Shown here in pieces: positions 23,975 to 27,329 of a DNA stretch of 64,000 nt (position 1 is its first letter; every line of letters starts with the position of its first letter). Made by a program: the position numbers and the translations under genes. The notes beneath the pieces are model-generated. The model was not told the origin of the DNA. It worked only from the letters and a program-made list of their open reading frames with translations, and did no database searches. The stretch comes from a virus. Where the stretch lies: positions 7,713-71,712 of the IMG/VR virus record IMGVR_UViG_3300027970_000019. One strand, 5' to 3'.

Positions 23975-24068
23975 AGTTAGGTGGTGTAATTGGTAGACAC
24001 TCGCTTAAAGGTGCGGTTAGTCAACGAAATGTAAAGCTAACGTATAGGTTCGAATCCTGTCCTAACTA
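23975..24068 (+). ncRNA. tRNA-like RNA A (AGTYAG family)
   Basis: AGTTAGG/CCTAACT-A, D and T arms, no 7-nt anticodon loop. Confidence 0.65.
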
Positions 24069-24150
24069 CTTGGTTGGGGAGAGACTGTTACTAATTCATA
24101 GAAGCCTCCATAATGGCGACCCTCTTAACGGTGGCGTAGAATTAGAATTT

Positions 24151-24243
24151 AGTTAGGTAGTTTAACTGGTGAAAACGGGGGAGGTTTTACAAACTATTAA
24201 ATTAGTACCAAATCTGTTACAGGTTCGAATCCTGTCCTGACTA
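24151..24243 (+). ncRNA. tRNA-like RNA B (AGTYAG family)
   Basis: AGTTAGG/CCTGACT-A, D and T arms, irregular middle. Confidence 0.65.
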
Positions 24244-24329
24244 CAAAAAAATTACCAAGAATCAAATAAATTGAAATTTTTTGGTTAGGATACTAAACTT
24301 ACGAACACTTGTGTATATTTATATATAAA

Positions 24330-25238
24330 ATGAATATTATGTTTAAGTGTAAAGTATGTCAAAAAGAGTTTTCTAATAAGGGGGGTCTAGTTACTCACGA
24401 AGGTGCTTGTGAAAAGGTTTTTACATATAAAGAAGAAATTAAAAAACTTTATAGTGAGGATTTGTGGAGTATAAGAAACCTATGTGAGAAATACAAGGTC
24501 GGTAAGGGGATTATCAGTGATATATTGTGTGACTTGATAAGGAGTAATAGTGAAAGTAGTAAAATAGGAAAAAAAAGGTTTCCATATGTGCATACCGAGG
24601 AGTCCAAAAAAATACTCAGGGAGAAAAGATTAGAGTTTATGAAAAAACACCCTGAAAAAACTTCTTGGCGTCAAAAAAATATTTCTTATCCTGAAAAAGT
24701 TTTTTTTAACAAAATAAATGAAATTGGGTGGGATAAAAAATATTCAATAGTTAGAGAGTTTTCAGTATTTCCTTTTTTTATTGATTTCGCATTTATGAAT
24801 GAAATGGTTGCTGTAGAAATTGATGGGTCACAACATCTCTTAGAAGAAAGAAAGAAAAAAGATCAAATTAAAGATAAAGTATTAAACGAACAAGGATGGT
24901 GTGTAATAAGAATTAGTGAAAATGAAATCAAAAAAAATATTGATGAAACTATTGAAAAGTTAGAGGTTATTTTGTTATCTTTGGTGAAGGAAAAAAAATA
25001 CGAGTTTGGTATTATAGAATTACCTAAAACAAGAGTAAAAAAAGAAAGATTGGAAAATGGATTAACTAAAGGTGAATTGAATCGTATGGTAAATGGAAGA
25101 AGAGTGGAACGTCCATTTTATACTGAATTGATTAAATCGGTGGAAGAAATTGGATATCTTGCAACAGGAAAAAAATATGGGGTTAGTGATAATGCCATAA
25201 GAAAGTGGTTAAGATTTTACTTAAAATATGAAAAATAA
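24330..25238 (+). CDS. homing endonuclease, Vsr/DUF559-like with NUMOD3 and HTH
   Basis: C2H2-like N-term, HTEESKK, SYPE...FIDFAF...VEIDGSQH...GWCVIRI, VSDNAIRKW. Confidence 0.8.
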   Translation: MNIMFKCKVCQKEFSNKGGLVTHEGACEKVFTYKEEIKKLYSEDLWSIRNLCEKYKVGKGIISDILCDLIRSNSESSKIGKKRFPYVHTEESKKILREKRLEFMKKHPEKTSWRQKNISYPEKVFFNKINEIGWDKKYSIVREFSVFPFFIDFAFMNEMVAVEIDGSQHLLEERKKKDQIKDKVLNEQGWCVIRISENEIKKNIDETIEKLEVILLSLVKEKKYEFGIIELPKTRVKKERLENGLTKGELNRMVNGRRVERPFYTELIKSVEEIGYLATGKKYGVSDNAIRKWLRFYLKYEK

Positions 25239-25242
25239 ATAT

Positions 25243-25314
25243 GTCCCGTTCGTATAATGGCAAGTACTCCAGATTTTCATTCTGGCAATAGGGTTTCGAC
25301 TACCCTACGGGATA
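25243..25314 (+). tRNA. tRNA-Glu(TTC)
   Basis: GTCCCGT/ACGGGAT; ccaga-ttTTCat-tctgg. Confidence 0.9.
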
Positions 25315-25364
25315 CAAATCACAGAAGTAATTAATCTGTGGCTGAGAGGTTCGAAACTCTCGAA

Positions 25365-25468
25365 TGATTATGGTGTAGTGGGCATACCACCTTCCAACAC
25401 GGTTCGACTCCGTGGCTAGTCTTGGTTGACAAAGGTGGGAGATTAAGGTTCGATTCCTTATTAATCAA
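25365..25468 (+). ncRNA. double-elbow tRNA-like RNA
   Basis: tRNA frame whose anticodon loop is replaced by a second T arm plus D arm. Confidence 0.6.
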
Positions 25469-25478
25469 CAAAACATAT

Positions 25479-25561
25479 TGCAGGATGTGAGCAATTGGTA
25501 GCTCAGGAGTCTCATAATCTCCCGTCCTTTGACCTTGGGGGTTCGAGTCCCCCTCCTGCGA
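25479..25561 (+). tRNA. tRNA-Met(CAT), fMet-like D arm, extra variable hairpin
   Basis: TGCAGGA/TCCTGCG; GAGC/GCTC; ctCATaa; GTC-cttt-GAC. Confidence 0.8.
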
Positions 25562-25576
25562 CAAAACATATTACAT

Positions 25577-25807
25577 ATGACACAACACATTAAATCTGGT
25601 ATTAGATTACTTGAAATGAAGTATTTGAGGGTTGGTGACAGGATTCATTTATATTCAAGGAATGGAATCTATAGAGTGGTTAAGGCTAAAAAGAATGAGA
25701 TTGATATTACTTGTAATGTTTGGGGGTATGAAGAAAACCCAATCAGAACAATTAGATATGATGACTTCAAATGTTTGGCTGGTGGAATATGGAAAAAGGG
25801 GGGTTAG
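25577..25807 (+). CDS. hypothetical protein
   Basis: ATG at 25577; stop overlaps tRNA-Ala 5' end. Confidence 0.5.
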   Translation: MTQHIKSGIRLLEMKYLRVGDRIHLYSRNGIYRVVKAKKNEIDITCNVWGYEENPIRTIRYDDFKCLAGGIWKKGG

Positions 25808-25871
25808 CTCATTCAGCAAGAGCACTTGTTTTGCACACAAGAGGTGATCGGAGCAAAGCCGATACTCTCCA
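25798..25871 (+). tRNA. tRNA-Ala(TGC), atypical D/T loops
   Basis: G3:U70; cttgt-ttTGCac-acaag; T loop AGCAAAG. Confidence 0.85.
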
Positions 25872-25890
25872 CTAAAAAAACCTTTATTAT

Positions 25891-26493
25891 ATGAAAAAAA
25901 TTTTTTTATTTCTTTTAGCGATTGTTTTATTAACATCCCTCACTTACAAAACACCCCCACGTAGGGTATTATACATCGGTGATAGTTTAACCTGTGCCGC
26001 AGGTGGGTGGCAGGATCAAGTATCAAAACATTTTGGATACCAGAGTCTAAATCTATCAAAAGGTGGTGTAAGGACGGATTATATGAGGTCAACGTTAAAC
26101 ACTTGTTTTAAAACAGATTCAGCTTTTACAAGGGTATTCATTTATGGTGGATGTAACGATGCGTTTTCTATGGTAGATTTACAAGGGGCGGTGAATAACA
26201 TTCAAGCAATGGTGGATAGTTGTAATCGAAGGGGAATTGAACCAATTGTTATTGTTGGTTTTAATCCAGCTCAGGTAGCAACAAAGACTGTGTATGACGC
26301 AGAAACAACCAAGAGATGTGTTGGAAGATACATTGAGTTTCAAAAACTAATGGTTAAAGAAAAAACTGGATTAAAGAATTGTAAAATAATTCCTATGGAC
26401 ACAACAATGTTTTATAGTGATACTTGGGATGGTATTCACTTTGCACCATCTGGACATAAGAAATTTTCTAATTGGGTAATTGAACATCTATGA
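25891..26493 (+). CDS. secreted SGNH/GDSL hydrolase
   Basis: signal peptide, IGDSLT, GGCND, DGIH. Confidence 0.9.
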   Translation: MKKIFLFLLAIVLLTSLTYKTPPRRVLYIGDSLTCAAGGWQDQVSKHFGYQSLNLSKGGVRTDYMRSTLNTCFKTDSAFTRVFIYGGCNDAFSMVDLQGAVNNIQAMVDSCNRRGIEPIVIVGFNPAQVATKTVYDAETTKRCVGRYIEFQKLMVKEKTGLKNCKIIPMDTTMFYSDTWDGIHFAPSGHKKFSNWVIEHL

Positions 26494-26738
26494 AACTAAT
26501 TTTTGTAATCTTAACATCATTGATTTTAACATCTTGTTTTGATTTACCCAAACTTGAGGAGGGTGATACGCTTAAGAAATGTGTAATTGACACTATGATT
26601 ATAACCGAATCACCCTCCACTTTAGAGTATGGTAAAGTGTATCATTATATAACTGATTGTGGTTATAGAATTTCAACAAGGAGAAATACGATTTATAATG
26701 TTGGTGATACAATTACATATATCTATAAAAAACGATAA
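26490..26738 (+). CDS. small lipoprotein
   Basis: LTSC lipobox. Confidence 0.6.
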   Translation: MKLIFVILTSLILTSCFDLPKLEEGDTLKKCVIDTMIITESPSTLEYGKVYHYITDCGYRISTRRNTIYNVGDTITYIYKKR

Positions 26739-26745
26739 TATACTA

Positions 26746-26817
26746 TCCGGTAAAACATATGTGGTGATGTACTCGGTTTGTACCCAAGAAAATGGGGTTC
26801 GATTCCTCATACCGGCT
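26746..26817 (+). tRNA. tRNA-Thr(TGT), degenerate
   Basis: ttTGTac loop; 1-72 and anticodon-stem mismatches. Confidence 0.7.
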
Positions 26818-26829
26818 CTACCAATTCTA

Positions 26830-26900
26830 GCGGGTATAGCATAAAAGTAATGTTCTAGTCTTCCAAACTAGATAAGTTGGGGCAGTACCAACTATCCGCT
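26830..26900 (+). tRNA. tRNA-Gly(TCC), atypical D/T loops
   Basis: GCGGGTA/TATCCGC, U73; ctTCCaa; T loop GGCAGTA. Confidence 0.85.
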
Positions 26901-26985
26901 CAAAAAAATTTTTAAAAAATATTATGAAAAGGTTGTGTAATTAAAAAACTCTATCTATATTTGTGAACACTAAAACGGAAATACA

Positions 26986-27216
26986 ATGCCTAAAGAGAAA
27001 AAAACAATCCAAATTGAGTACATCAAAGACTTCGCTAACAAACAATTGTCACATCCAAATAACACAATGGAAGAAAAACTTGGCATTATCACAATGATTG
27101 AAAAGATTCTACTCGAAGCTAACGCTTACAGGGGATTTATGTTTCTTCATTTAGATGAAAATAACAACGCACCAAGTTTAGGAACTGAGGGATATGTTAC
27201 TAGAAAATACTTTTAA
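26986..27216 (+). CDS. hypothetical protein
   Basis: ORF track; TATATTTG promoter upstream. Confidence 0.6.
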   Translation: MPKEKKTIQIEYIKDFANKQLSHPNNTMEEKLGIITMIEKILLEANAYRGFMFLHLDENNNAPSLGTEGYVTRKYF

Positions 27217-27221
27217 AAAAT

Positions 27222-27329
27222 AGTCAGTTGGCGTAAGTGGGAATGAATACCACATATGGGTAACGTCCGAGGTAGAATAGTATTCTTTAAGCATCCTGGG
27301 GGATATAGGTTCAAATCCTATACTGACTA
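27222..27329 (+). ncRNA. tRNA-like RNA C (AGTYAG family)
   Basis: AGTCAGT/ACTGACT-A, T arm, hairpin inserted in D loop. Confidence 0.65.

What the first reader, a model, noticed from the sequence alone, without database searches (positions are those of the whole stretch)
23975..27329. Family of three anticodon-less tRNA-like RNAs with constant top half and hypervariable bottom half
Seen: 23975-24068, 24151-24243 and 27222-27329 share (T)AGTYAG(G/T)/(C/A)CTRACT-A-C acceptor stems with a compensatory 7-66 change, A73, a D stem and an AYAGG-TTCRAAT-CCTRT T arm. The anticodon and variable regions are unrelated and have no canonical 7-nt loop, and copy C has a hairpin inside its D loop. Established: LeuRS relies on A73 and the elbow rather than the anticodon. 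Inference: non-decoding aminoacyl donors, or decoys for tRNA-targeting defence toxins.
Basis: partly seen in the sequence, partly recalled or inferred. Interest (0 to 1): 0.8.

Follow-up and report, generated by a model that had tools for sequence, protein, structure and literature searches.

The report
Anticodon-less leucine-tRNA-framed phage RNAs
Three small genes in the tRNA cluster of this lake-water phage encode RNAs that keep the outer frame of a leucine tRNA but carry unrelated, individually conserved folded inserts where the codon-reading arm should be; they belong to a very large phage-only RNA family whose job is still unknown.

Summary
A (23975-24069), B (24151-24244) and C (27222-27330) share a tRNA-Leu-type acceptor, D arm and T arm. 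They are the only three members on this 71.7-kb phage contig (my model: 77.5, 70.8 and 55.7 bits; next hit 34.1). None has a usable anticodon arm.

They are not decay products:
- The shared frame occurs in more than 300 distinct copies in uncultured phage contigs. Only 22 matches occur in 185,579 species genomes, all in metagenome bins.
- Each insert is kept by selection. Insert A recurs in 12 contexts on differing frames (1 of 16 unforced insert columns varies, against 31 of 54 frame columns). B differs from its closest orthologue only by one compensatory pair. C's D-loop hairpin recurs in 61 loci with strong covariation.
- New here: base -1 covaries with "A73", so the acceptor helix is 8 bp at least in the precursor. 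This weakens the LeuRS argument.

No partner protein, target or Rfam match was found. My best reading (0.45) is a tRNA frame that borrows host tRNA processing to present structured RNA modules. Charging and decoy roles remain untested. Architecturally, phage T5 RNA1/RNA2 are closest.

This scan had already noted the family on other DNA: 28 notes matched my word search, and the eight shown described it.

The parts
23859..23894 (+). Motif CTTGGAACTAA-N-GGTTTATAAT upstream of A; candidate phage-specific promoter (inference only)
   Evidence: Unique in the window with this pattern. A similar motif directly precedes the B orthologue in L029. The sigma-70 consensus scan found no + strand site here, and its total count was below chance (12 against 14.3 expected).
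23895..23973 (+). Conserved leader between the motif and copy A
   Evidence: 71% identical over 23905-24069 in L051. Nearly identical in metagenome contigs L323/L324, where it is followed directly by a B-type copy. Contigs from two RNA libraries cover 23907-23960.
23974..24069 (+). Copy A. T(-1) 23974; acceptor 23975-81 with 24061-67; D arm 23984-24000; short stem CGC/GCG with 8-nt loop TTAAAGGT 24002-15; long extra arm 24016-41; T arm 24044-60; A73 24068; C74 24069
   Evidence: My model scores it 77.5 bits and Rfam tRNA 36.9 bits with the anticodon arm skipped. The minimum-energy fold is this cloverleaf. In 12 orthologous contexts, 99% of cells are paired, 10 pairs change on both sides (1.4 in shuffles), and -1:73 is paired in 12 of 12. 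Unforced insert columns vary in 1 of 16, frame columns in 31 of 54.
24150..24244 (+). Copy B. T(-1) 24150; acceptor 24151-57 with 24236-42; D arm 24160-76; 41-nt insert 24177-24217; U48 24218; T arm 24219-35; A73 24243; C74 24244
   Evidence: My model scores it 70.8 bits and Rfam tRNA 44.2 bits with the arm skipped. It differs from L029 at 2 of 94 positions, and these two form one compensatory T-stem pair (C-G to U-A), while neighbouring genes are 70-84% identical. In L323/L324 the insert is identical and G69 is A, restoring a Watson-Crick pair.
27221..27330 (+). Copy C. T(-1) 27221; acceptor 27222-28 with 27322-28; D stem 27231-34 with 27263-66; T arm 27305-21; A73 27329; C74 27330
   Evidence: My model scores it 55.7 bits. 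Rfam does not hit it at E<=5. Orthologue L114 is 82.7% identical. In the alignment of 46 relatives, 96.4% of cells are paired and the covariation score is 0.614 against 0.198 in shuffles, reached by 0 of 500. One 96-nt contig of an RNA library covers 27237-27332.
27237..27253 (+). Hairpin GUGG-GAAUGAAUA-CCAC inserted in C's D loop
   Evidence: The 21-nt motif around it occurs in 61 viral loci, on many different acceptor stems.
27267..27300 (+). C insert: outer stem 27267-72 with 27295-300; inner hairpin AGAAU-AGU-AUUCU 27274-86; 3' bulge UUAAGCAU 27287-94
   Evidence: The same two-tier module (NGAUAGNAUCN followed by UUAA) is in 13 of the 46 aligned relatives. All 6 outer-stem pairs and 3 of 5 inner pairs change on both sides.

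Best explanation
A, B and C are functional, non-decoding small RNAs built on a tRNA-Leu-derived frame: acceptor helix, D arm, elbow and T arm.

Proposed mechanism (inferred, not shown):
- They are transcribed with the phage's tRNA array.
- The tRNA-like frame makes the host's tRNA maturation enzymes cut them out (RNase P, 3' trimming, CCA addition) and gives them tRNA-like stability.
- The part that does the specific work is the module carried in place of the anticodon and variable arms, and in C also the hairpin in the D loop.
- Each module is a structured RNA with its own sequence constraint, most likely a binding site for a host or phage protein or RNA.
- The 8-bp acceptor helix (-1:73) stacked on the 5-bp T stem, together with the missing anticodon arm, would keep them out of translation.

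Shown here: the family, its structure, selection on both frame and inserts, and modular reuse of inserts on different frames. Inferred: processing, stability, and that the insert is the effector. Not identified: any target.
For: Family size and phage restriction:
The 5' motif scan also stopped at its limit.
- There are 319 unique members in 200 loci.
- Only 22 matches occur in 596 Gb of species genomes, all in metagenome-assembled bins.

Structure under selection:
- Relatives of C: 96.4% of cells paired, covariation 0.614 against 0.198 in shuffles and at most 0.134 when partners are slid.
- Relatives of A: 10 pairs with changes on both sides, against 1.4 in shuffles.

Inserts under their own selection:
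- A-type unforced insert columns vary in 1 of 16, frame columns in 31 of 54 (Fisher p=3.5e-4).
- B's insert is unchanged in 3 relatives, although flanking genes differ by 16-30%.
- C's insert shows compensatory changes.
- Recurrent insert clusters show compensatory helices.
- Inserts fold somewhat better than shuffles: 35% have z<-1 and 11% have z<-2.

Modularity:
- Insert A sits on acceptors AGTCAGG, GGACAGG, AGTCTTG and GGTCAGG.
- C's D-loop hairpin sits on dozens of different acceptors.

Same genomic context as real tRNAs:
- Same strand and same array.
- C74 followed by A/T, as in 345 of 346 ordinary tRNAs of these loci.
- T at -1.

No linked partner protein: the best neighbour cluster is in 18 of 225 loci.

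Precedents:
- The T5 GenBank record annotates RNA1 and RNA2 in its tRNA cluster as 'tRNA-like stable RNA with unknown functions', and they have the same architecture.
- Engineered tRNA scaffolds stabilise foreign RNAs in E. coli (PMC3753655, search listing and start of abstract only; the original method is recalled).
Against: - No target or binding partner was found.
- The inserts of A, B and C have only chance-level complementarity to the phage's own 71.7 kb: 10-12 nt matches.
- They match no Rfam family.
- A pure 'any tRNA will do' scaffold does not explain why the acceptor sequence AGTCAGG/CCTGACT is nearly invariant (251 of 323 copies) in phages that share almost no proteins.
- It also does not explain why the frame is specifically Leu-type.
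- My crude test for a closing helix at the insert boundaries showed no excess over shuffles (12.8% against 12.3%).
- Expression and processing of A, B and C themselves are not shown. RNA-library contigs may come from contaminating DNA.
Confidence: 0.45

Rival explanations
1. Leucine-charged, non-decoding tRNA mimics. Host LeuRS charges them, because it needs neither the anticodon arm nor the variable arm. The Leu-RNA then either serves as an aminoacyl donor for a non-ribosomal reaction or ties up LeuRS.
For: - The frame is Leu-type. The 5' half matches annotated tRNA-Leu genes in phage and Salmonella records.
- A has A73, A14, A15, U48, G18G19, A20a and a canonical T loop.
- In frames found from the 5' side, U48 is kept in 89 of 94 and A73 in 79 of 94.
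Against: - Position 73 is G, which the same review names as an antideterminant for LeuRS, in 13 of 97 frames; it is U in 2 and C in 1.
- Among the 12 A-type copies with the same insert it is A in 9, G in 2 and C in 1.
- In C-type relatives it is A in 24, T in 11, G in 7 and C in 5.
- It covaries with -1, so it may be paired.
- B lacks A20a, and C has a 17-nt hairpin between A15 and G18.
- Sequence conservation of each insert is not explained.
- No transferase of the Fem, L/F or cyclodipeptide-synthase kind is among the neighbours.
Confidence: 0.15
2. Decoys or sponges for host factors that recognise the tRNA top half or the extra arm of long-arm tRNAs. Examples are defence nucleases that cut tRNA variable loops, or toxins that act on the 3' end. 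The RNAs would soak these up without entering translation.
For: - Context: the array holds 16 ARAGORN-called tRNAs, and an RNA ligase gene lies at 32491-33516.
- Great diversity at exactly the variable-arm region fits an arms race.
Against: - Inserts do not resemble anticodon arms more than shuffled inserts do (33 of 145 against 26-35 of 145).
- A stoichiometric decoy against an enzyme is inefficient (my reasoning).
- Strict sequence conservation of individual inserts across unrelated phages is not needed for a top-half decoy.
- No defence or anti-defence gene is consistently nearby.
Confidence: 0.2
3. The constant ends act mainly at the DNA level. They would be portable homology arms, or homing-endonuclease targets, that let phages exchange cassettes in tRNA arrays. 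On this reading the RNA shape is secondary.
For: - In L323/L324 a B-type copy sits exactly where A sits in the window, directly behind the same leader.
- HNH and DUF559 endonuclease genes lie between the RNA genes here and are absent from relatives L029 and L323.
- The ends are near-identical in phages that otherwise share few genes.
- PMC13096335 (abstract) shows that a tRNA-cluster homing endonuclease drives segmental amplification.
Against: - Compensatory changes keep the helices paired. That is selection on RNA, not on DNA.
- The inserts are conserved in their own right.
- T5 relatives are annotated as stable RNAs.
Confidence: 0.07
4. Decaying tRNA-Leu pseudogenes with no function.
For: - Some copies found from the 5' side have damaged 3' strands: 19 of 129 anchors had no proper 3' end.
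- A's lower half looks like a tRNA-Leu anticodon arm shortened by a few bases.
Against: - Purifying selection and covariation act on both frame and inserts.
- There are hundreds of copies in unrelated phages.
- Up to six motif matches lie on one fetched stretch (L009).
Confidence: 0.03

Closest known systems
Phage T5 RNA1 and RNA2 (GenBank AY543070, misc_RNA 30501-30644 and 32959-33083, 'tRNA-like stable RNA with unknown functions'); also T4 rnaC/rnaD (species 1 and 2 RNAs)
   Same: - They are encoded inside the phage tRNA cluster, among homing-endonuclease genes.
- They have tRNA-like ends with a non-tRNA interior.
- RNA1 has the Leu-type D arm.
- RNA2 has the T arm GCAGG-TTCGAAT-CCTGT, an 8-bp terminal helix at its annotated ends and then A-C.
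- RNA2's interior holds a T-arm-like hairpin that also occurs in lake-phage inserts.
- Function is unknown. [quoted passage not shown]
   Different: - There is no detectable membership by my model: T5 RNA1 scores 16.1 bits, RNA2 21.0 bits and T4 rnaC 21.6 bits, no better than ordinary tRNAs.
- No cultured-phage record holds both halves of the AGTCAGG frame (0 of 166 matching records cover 80% or more).
- The hosts differ: E. coli for T4 and T5, against probably freshwater Bacteroidota here.
Class II bacterial or phage tRNA-Leu (Rfam RF00005)
   Same: Acceptor, D arm of the GGCGGAAUUGGUAGACGC type, elbow, U48, T arm and A at position 73. A also has a long extra arm.
   Different: There is no 5-bp anticodon stem with a 7-nt loop. 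Inserts are 30-100 nt and unrelated to each other. The -1:73 pair is under selection.
tmRNA (SsrA)
   Same: A tRNA-like top half whose lower half is replaced by other RNA. It is processed like a tRNA and is non-decoding in the usual sense (recalled).
   Different: - The pair at 3-70 is U-A here, so there is no G3:U70 alanine mark.
- A full D arm is present.
- The inserts are too short and too varied for a tag reading frame with pseudoknots.
- Rfam tmRNA does not hit the three copies, whereas it does hit a separate tmRNA gene at 38146-38527.
Engineered tRNA scaffolds for expressing recombinant RNA in E. coli
   Same: The design is the same: the RNA of interest replaces the anticodon arm of a tRNA, so that the cell processes and stabilises it (PMC3753655, search listing and start of abstract only; details recalled).
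   Different: That is a laboratory construct. Here the design is natural, multi-copy and evolving, with hundreds of inserts.
Bacterial Ro60 (Rsr) with YrlA Y RNAs
   Same: This phage encodes a protein of PHROG 850 'RNA-binding protein' (Pfam DUF2828 and DUF7788) 10 kb upstream.
   Different: - In YrlA the free ends are in the Ro-binding stem and the acceptor is closed, which is the opposite topology (recalled).
- Rfam YrlA does not hit the three copies.
- DUF7788 is present in only 4 of 15 family-bearing virus records, and in 1 of 4 that are at least 90% complete.
- I did not show that the protein is Ro60-like. The sequence search of solved structures found nothing.

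Membership tests
tRNA-Leu, class II (functional decoder) | 7-bp acceptor stem, D arm and T arm forming a cloverleaf top half | tested here: met
   Read from the sequence. Rfam tRNA hits A and B end to end. Covariation is shown in relatives.
tRNA-Leu, class II (functional decoder) | 5-bp anticodon stem with a 7-nt loop (U33, purine 37) carrying a Leu anticodon | tested here: not met
   - A has a 3-4-bp stem and an 8-nt loop.
- B has a weak stem 4 nt out of place, called Val-UAC at chance level.
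- C has none.
tRNA-Leu, class II (functional decoder) | LeuRS identity set: free A73, A15:U48, G18G19, A20a and the T-loop pairs (as listed in PMC9976931) | tested here: inconclusive
   - All the letters are present in A.
- B has G at 20a.
- C has a hairpin between A15 and G18.
- Position 73 varies and covaries with -1 in relatives.
- Charging itself cannot be tested with these tools.
AGTCAGG-frame anticodon-less tRNA-Leu-like phage RNAs (unnamed; noted earlier by this scan) | Near-constant 5' end (acceptor plus Leu-type D arm) and 3' end (U48, T arm, acceptor, A, C), with a non-tRNA interior | tested here: met
   My model built on 72 members scores A 77.5, B 70.8 and C 55.7 bits, against 34.1 or less for ordinary tRNAs. 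A, B and C were among the 72 training sequences, so they match partly by construction. The independent evidence is the motif count and the orthologues.
AGTCAGG-frame anticodon-less tRNA-Leu-like phage RNAs (unnamed; noted earlier by this scan) | Located in phage tRNA arrays; essentially absent from cellular genomes | tested here: met
   The copies lie in the array on the + strand. There are 22 matches in 185,579 species genomes, all in metagenome bins.
D-loop-hairpin tRNA-like RNAs (unnamed; defined here by C's relatives) | Hairpin GUGG-GAAUGAAUA-CCAC in the D loop, a closed hairpin instead of the anticodon arm, an R-R-A-U variable loop, and an 8-bp acceptor helix including -1:73 | tested here: met
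   C has all four features. For the family.
Phage T5 RNA1/RNA2 tRNA-like stable RNAs | Sequence or structure homology detectable by a covariance model | tested here: not met
   T5 RNA1 scores 16.1 bits and RNA2 21.0 bits, within the range of ordinary T5 tRNAs (15-36 bits).
Phage T5 RNA1/RNA2 tRNA-like stable RNAs | tRNA-like termini around a non-tRNA interior, encoded in the tRNA cluster | tested here: met
Phage T5 RNA1/RNA2 tRNA-like stable RNAs | Accumulates as a discrete stable RNA in infected cells | not testable with these tools
   Only assembled contigs of RNA libraries were available. One 96-nt contig covers C, and DNA carry-over cannot be excluded.
tmRNA | G3:U70, a tag reading frame and pseudoknots; a match to Rfam RF00023 | tested here: not met
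   The 3-70 pair is U-A. There is no RF00023 hit on the three copies.
tRNA-Sec (bacterial 8/5 type) | 8-bp acceptor stem plus 5-bp T stem | tested here: inconclusive
   The -1:73 pair is supported by covariation. Whether N-1 stays in the mature RNA is unknown.
tRNA-Sec (bacterial 8/5 type) | 6-bp D stem with a 4-nt loop and a UCA anticodon; a match to Rfam RF01852 | tested here: not met
   The D arm is Leu-type, there is no UCA anticodon arm, and RF01852 does not hit the region.
YrlA / Y RNA with Ro60 | A match to Rfam RF02553; obligatory co-occurrence with a Ro60-type protein | tested here: not met
   There is no hit in 23650-27700 at E<=5. DUF7788 is in 4 of 15 records.

The most novel reading that the evidence does not exclude
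Phages run a natural 'RNA display' system. One constant tRNA-Leu-derived frame, with an 8-bp acceptor helix that keeps it out of translation, hijacks host tRNA maturation. It delivers hundreds of different, exchangeable structured RNA modules, each of which binds or inhibits a specific host or rival-phage factor. This would be an RNA counterpart of the fast-evolving accessory-protein arsenals, with modules swapped between phages at the constant ends.
Probability: 0.3. Interest if true: 0.85.

Novelty: new variant of a known kind. Interest (0 to 1): 0.72.

Why it matters
Phage tRNA clusters are usually read as codon-usage or anti-defence tRNA supplies. Here a large share of the 'tRNA-like' genes cannot decode at all, yet they are among the most conserved sequences these phages share.

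If the frame is a delivery and stability device, three things follow:
- The several hundred insert types would be an untapped catalogue of natural RNA ligands or regulators.
- The 50-year-old puzzle of the T4 and T5 small stable RNAs would gain a comparative framework: which parts are frame, which are module, and what to mutate.
- It would be a natural precedent for tRNA-scaffolded aptamers.

The -1:73 covariation gives a concrete, testable prediction about how RNase P cuts these RNAs and whether they can be charged.

Tried and rejected
Insert targets. I looked for antisense or sense matches of the A, B and C inserts in the phage's own 71.7 kb. Only 10-12-nt matches turned up, plus one 14-nt sense match of C's D-loop region at 38977 that I did not follow.

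Known RNA families. Rfam at E<=5 on the region and at E<=0.5 on 8 multi-copy loci totalling 58,317 bases returned only tRNA-clan hits on family members.

Partner proteins:
- tblastn of 172 ORFs of the contig against 120 loci: the best ORF hit 8 loci.
- Clustering of 3,529 ORFs from 225 loci: the largest cluster spans 18 loci. The ten largest clusters include DUF932, a sigma-like protein, terminase, a primase-like protein and unknowns.

Ro60-like link:
- DUF7788 is in 4 of 15 family-bearing records. Three essentially complete genomes lack it.
- phmmer of the protein against PDB sequences gave nothing below E=0.07.
- I ran no fold prediction.

tRNA repair kinase. None was found among ten further ORFs.

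Promoters and terminators. The sigma-70 and terminator consensus scans gave counts at or below chance.

Closing-helix test on inserts. No excess over shuffles (12.8% against 12.3%), but my insert boundaries were crude.

RNA libraries:
- Four metatranscriptome runs, held as contigs only, gave no cover of A or of B's insert.
- They cover the constant 3' end many times with unlike flanks, C once (a 96-nt contig), the ORFs at 25887-26745, and 27352-27540.
- They are contigs, DNA may be present in such libraries, and the ends cannot be read, so I draw no conclusion on expression or processing.

Cultured phages. The blastn search found no record with both halves of the frame.

Literature:
- Searches found no description of an anticodon-less tRNA-Leu-framed phage RNA family.
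- PMC10690425 (passages read) lists five 'tRNA or tRNA-like' candidate RNAs without this architecture, and its main text has no occurrence of 'anticodon'. Its supplementary tables, which I could not open, may include members.
- PMC4810235 (passages read) mentions T5 tRNAs but not the stable RNAs.
- Subscription-journal papers of the 1970s-80s on the T4 and T5 stable RNAs are outside the library.

Rows dropped:
- L280 (134 nt) and four identical long copies (L226, L229, L259, L269), for which no 3' strand was found, were left out of alignment A3.
- L296 was left out of A4.
- Alignment A2 used 72 of about 323 members, restricted to lengths of 112 nt or less and chosen partly for non-consensus ends.

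Full report
What is there.

The window is 64 kb of a 71.7-kb single-contig virus record. CheckV estimates it as 24% complete, so it is a fragment of a much larger phage. Lake-water metagenomes hold it, and these may be its source. It carries a portal gene, HNH endonucleases, an RNA ligase and an EcoRV-type restriction-modification pair. ARAGORN tRNAs on the + strand, and Rfam finds a tmRNA.

Their common 3' motif occurs three times in the window and never in 100 shuffles.

A covariance model of the frame was searched with filters off. It scores A 77.5, B 70.8 and C 55.7 bits, and the next hit, an ordinary tRNA-Met, 34.1 bits. No further member lies on the rest of the contig. A, B and C were in the model's training set, so the independent support is the motif count and the orthologues described below.

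They are not decoders.

- Rfam's tRNA model aligns A and B only by jumping over its anticodon arm, and it misses C.
- A has a 3-4-bp stem with an 8-nt loop (ARAGORN: 'anticodon aaag') followed by a long extra arm.
- B's 'Val-UAC' call rests on a stem with two Watson-Crick pairs, placed four bases too far from the D arm.
- C has a two-tier hairpin and no anticodon-like loop.

As a control I ran ARAGORN on 145 unique relatives. It, with anticodons scattered over many amino acids. With the inserts shuffled it in ten repeats. The calls therefore come from the frame, not from anticodon arms. Most of the 33 called stems have only 3 or 4 pairs, three have 5, and none is a canonical tRNA-Leu arm.

They belong to a very large family restricted to phages.

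- A scan with the 26-nt 5' half also stopped at its limit.
- A relaxed finder gives 319-323 unique copies in 200 loci. Of these, 251 of 323 have exactly AGTCAGG/CCTGACT.
- Lengths run from 59 to 170 nt.
- The 5' half is the D arm typical of tRNA-Leu: in cultured-phage and Salmonella records it matches annotated tRNA-Leu genes.
- In copies found from the 5' side, so unbiased for the 3' half, 89 of 94 have U48, 72 of 94 have the T stem ACAGG/CCTGT with several compensated variants, and 79 of 94 have A73.
- In 596 Gb of one-per-species genomes the motif occurs 22 times. All are in metagenome-assembled bins of inconsistent taxonomy, and about half are labelled Bacteroidota. I read these as binned phage contigs.
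- No cultured-phage record holds both halves.

The inserts are enormously diverse: 245 clusters among 319 members, 193 of them singletons and the largest holding 6.

Each of the three copies is under selection, insert included.

Copy A:
- Its insert motif recurs in 14 viral loci. That gives 12 alignable contexts with unrelated flanks.
- The frames differ between them: AGTCAGG, GGACAGG/CCTGTCC, AGTCTTG/CAGGACT and GGTCAGG/CCTGACC.
- On the proposed cloverleaf, 99% of cells are paired. Ten pairs show changes on both sides, against 1.4 in shuffles (0 of 500).
- Outside the 22 nt that my search pattern forced, insert columns vary in 1 of 16, against 31 of 54 frame columns (Fisher p=3.5e-4).
- The one variable site is the loop position that corresponds to a wobble base (C in 9 copies, U in 2, A in the window).

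Copy B:
- It has one IMG/VR orthologue (L029) and two identical metagenome copies.
- Against L029 the only two differences form a compensatory T-stem pair, while neighbouring genes are 70-84% identical.
- In L323/L324 the insert is unchanged and G69 becomes A, turning a wobble into a Watson-Crick pair.

Copy C:
- The 21-nt D-loop hairpin motif occurs in 61 viral loci.
- This defines a second, overlapping family in which the acceptor stem is free to vary.
- In 46 aligned members, 96.4% of cells are paired (72.7% in shuffles). The covariation score is 0.614, against 0.198 in shuffles and at most 0.134 with slid partners.
- All 7 acceptor pairs, 4 of 5 T-stem pairs, all 6 outer insert pairs and 3 of 5 inner insert pairs show changes on both sides.
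- C's insert, an outer stem enclosing NGAUAGNAUCN with a 3' UUAA bulge, is shared by 13 of the 46.

Decay products of tRNAs can therefore be excluded.

A new structural point: the acceptor helix has an eighth pair.

- The base before position 1 is T in A, B and C, and it faces A73.
- In relatives of C, -1:73 is a Watson-Crick pair in 36 of 47 (UA 17, AU 10, CG 5, GC 4). Shuffling gives 18.1 +/- 2.9, with a maximum of 27 in 2000.
- In the 12 A-type copies it is paired in all (UA 9, CG 1, GC 1, UG 1).
- In frames found from the 5' side, 15 of the 16 that lack A73 are still paired (11.7 +/- 1.0 expected).
- As a control, 346 ordinary class I tRNAs from the same loci show only a small excess (194 against 173 +/- 6.5), partly from four G-1:C73 pairs of the kind expected for tRNA-His.

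So the helix is 8 bp at least in the precursor. T5 RNA2's annotated ends also give an 8-bp terminal helix.

From general knowledge (recalled, not tested here), an extended -1:73 pair shifts RNase P cleavage, as in tRNA-His. An 8-bp acceptor on a 5-bp T stem is the tRNA-Sec geometry, which EF-Tu avoids.

The conserved C after position 73 is not special to the family: 345 of 346 ordinary tRNAs here have it.

The literature point is correct. The review PMC9976931 (passages of its 'Leucine identity' section) says that E. coli LeuRS needs A73, A15-U48, G18G19, A20a and the D/T tertiary pairs, and that variants without the anticodon arm and long variable arm remain active. A carries all these letters.

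However, position 73 is not kept as a LeuRS determinant would be:
- It is G in 13, U in 2 and C in 1 of 97 frames.
- It is A in 9, G in 2 and C in 1 among copies with the very same A insert.
- It takes all four bases in C's relatives.
- It covaries with -1.

B lacks A20a, and C has a hairpin between A15 and G18. Charging is thus possible for some copies, but it does not look like the feature under selection.

The decoy idea gains context from PMC13096335 (abstract and passages read). Septu and retron-Eco7 cut the variable loop of long-arm tRNA-Tyr, and phage tRNAs counter this. It is not supported by the insert statistics, and it does not explain insert-specific conservation.

Search for partners and targets.

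- No neighbouring protein family accompanies the RNAs. The best window ORF is found in 8 of 120 loci, and the best cluster of 3,529 ORFs spans 18 of 225 loci.
- A PHROG-850 'RNA-binding protein' (DUF2828 and DUF7788) lies 10 kb upstream. DUF7788 is found in only 4 of 15 family-bearing records and in 1 of 4 that are at least 90% complete.
- The inserts match no Rfam family.
- They show no meaningful complementarity to the phage's own DNA.
- Inserts fold moderately better than shuffles: mean z is -0.67, and 11% are below -2.

Gain and loss of units.

In L323/L324 the leader that precedes A in the window is followed directly by a B-type copy. The two endonuclease genes that flank this part of the array are missing from relatives. 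Units are therefore gained, lost or replaced at the constant ends. The compensatory changes show that the RNA fold, not only the DNA, is selected.

Expression.

Only contigs of four metatranscriptome runs could be laid. They hold the constant 3' end many times with unlike flanks, which points to other family members. They hold one 96-nt contig over C (27237-27332). They also hold neighbouring ORFs and the conserved non-coding stretch 27352-27540. DNA carry-over cannot be excluded and the ends cannot be read, so this is weak.

Comparison with what is known.

- The T5 record annotates RNA1 and RNA2 in its tRNA cluster as 'tRNA-like stable RNA with unknown functions'.
- RNA1 has the Leu-type D arm. 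RNA2 has the same T arm and A-C end as this family, plus an insert hairpin that is also seen in lake-phage inserts.
- T4 rnaC and rnaD lie in the same kind of place and are still 'of yet unknown functions' (PMC9697503, passages read).
- My model does not separate any of them from ordinary tRNAs (16-22 bits). The relation is therefore architectural, not demonstrated homology.

My literature searches and Rfam found no description of the family. Older subscription papers and the supplements of PMC10690425 were out of reach.

This scan itself had noted the family on other genomes. Twenty-eight notes matched my word search and eight were shown. From them I took the T5 lead, which I checked, and the cassette-exchange idea, which I checked in part.

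Verdict.

The most likely mechanism is a tRNA-derived frame that borrows host tRNA processing and stability to present structured RNA modules (0.45). Charging (0.15), decoy (0.2) and DNA-level cassette roles (0.07) remain open. The function is not known.

Noticed in passing
window 12392-13795 (+) and 13800-14130: A 467-aa protein of PHROG 850 'RNA-binding protein' (Pfam DUF2828 and DUF7788). It is followed by three roughly 60-nt units that share a motif of the form GGAATGATTCCTGCAAA or GAATGAGTTCAGCAAA. These may be small RNA partners.
   Followed up: partly
window 27331-27547 (+): A non-coding stretch of about 215 nt between copy C and tRNA-Arg. It is conserved at 67-88% in L009, L015, L055, L060 and L081, in L009 and L081 directly beside a family member. 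Contigs of all four RNA libraries laid cover parts of it. It has no Rfam match. The motif ACTCACCAGT occurs twice.
   Followed up: partly
window 25316-25478 (+): Three back-to-back mini tRNA-like units, each with a T-arm-like hairpin and a terminal helix but no D arm or anticodon arm, lying between tRNA-Glu and the next tRNA. The first is conserved in L009, L029, L040 and L050.
   Followed up: no
window 16183-16260 (+) and 23646-23742 (+): Two more tRNA-like elements without a canonical anticodon arm and with different acceptor sequences. My model scores them 31.9 and 26.8 bits. The first is 92.9% identical in L029.
   Followed up: no
window 25479-25562 (+) and 29955-30029 (+): A tRNA with anticodon CAT, a long extra arm and G73 (84 nt), and a 75-nt 'tRNA-Leu(TAG)' without the long arm that bacterial tRNA-Leu normally has. 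Their charging identities are unclear.
   Followed up: no
window 38146-38527 (-): A phage-encoded tmRNA. Rfam scores it 83.1 bits over the full-length model. It lies on the strand opposite to the tRNA array, and ARAGORN did not report it.
   Followed up: no
window 26830-26900 (+): A tRNA found by Rfam (46 bits) but missed by ARAGORN. Its anticodon loop reads CTTCCAA (UCC, Gly) and its T loop is atypical.
   Followed up: no
window 22783-23646, 24309-25238 and 14893-15681 (+): HNH-type and DUF559/Vsr-like endonuclease genes inserted between RNA genes. The first two are absent from the syntenic stretch of L029, and 24309-25238 is also absent from L323/L324. This suggests mobile homing endonuclease genes.
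   Followed up: partly
L321 (T5 AY543070) 28038-28113: T5 tRNA-Met(CAU) has the ends AGUUAGU...ACUAACUAC, the same acceptor type as this family. It is the best T5 hit of my model at 36.2 bits.
   Followed up: no
window 41444-42721 (-) and 43021-44346 (-): The two halves of a ClpB-like AAA+ protein are encoded as separate ORFs. The first carries a weak intein-splicing match.
   Followed up: no
window 17119-18791 (+): An EcoRV-family restriction endonuclease followed by a D12-class adenine methyltransferase, inside the tRNA array region.
   Followed up: no
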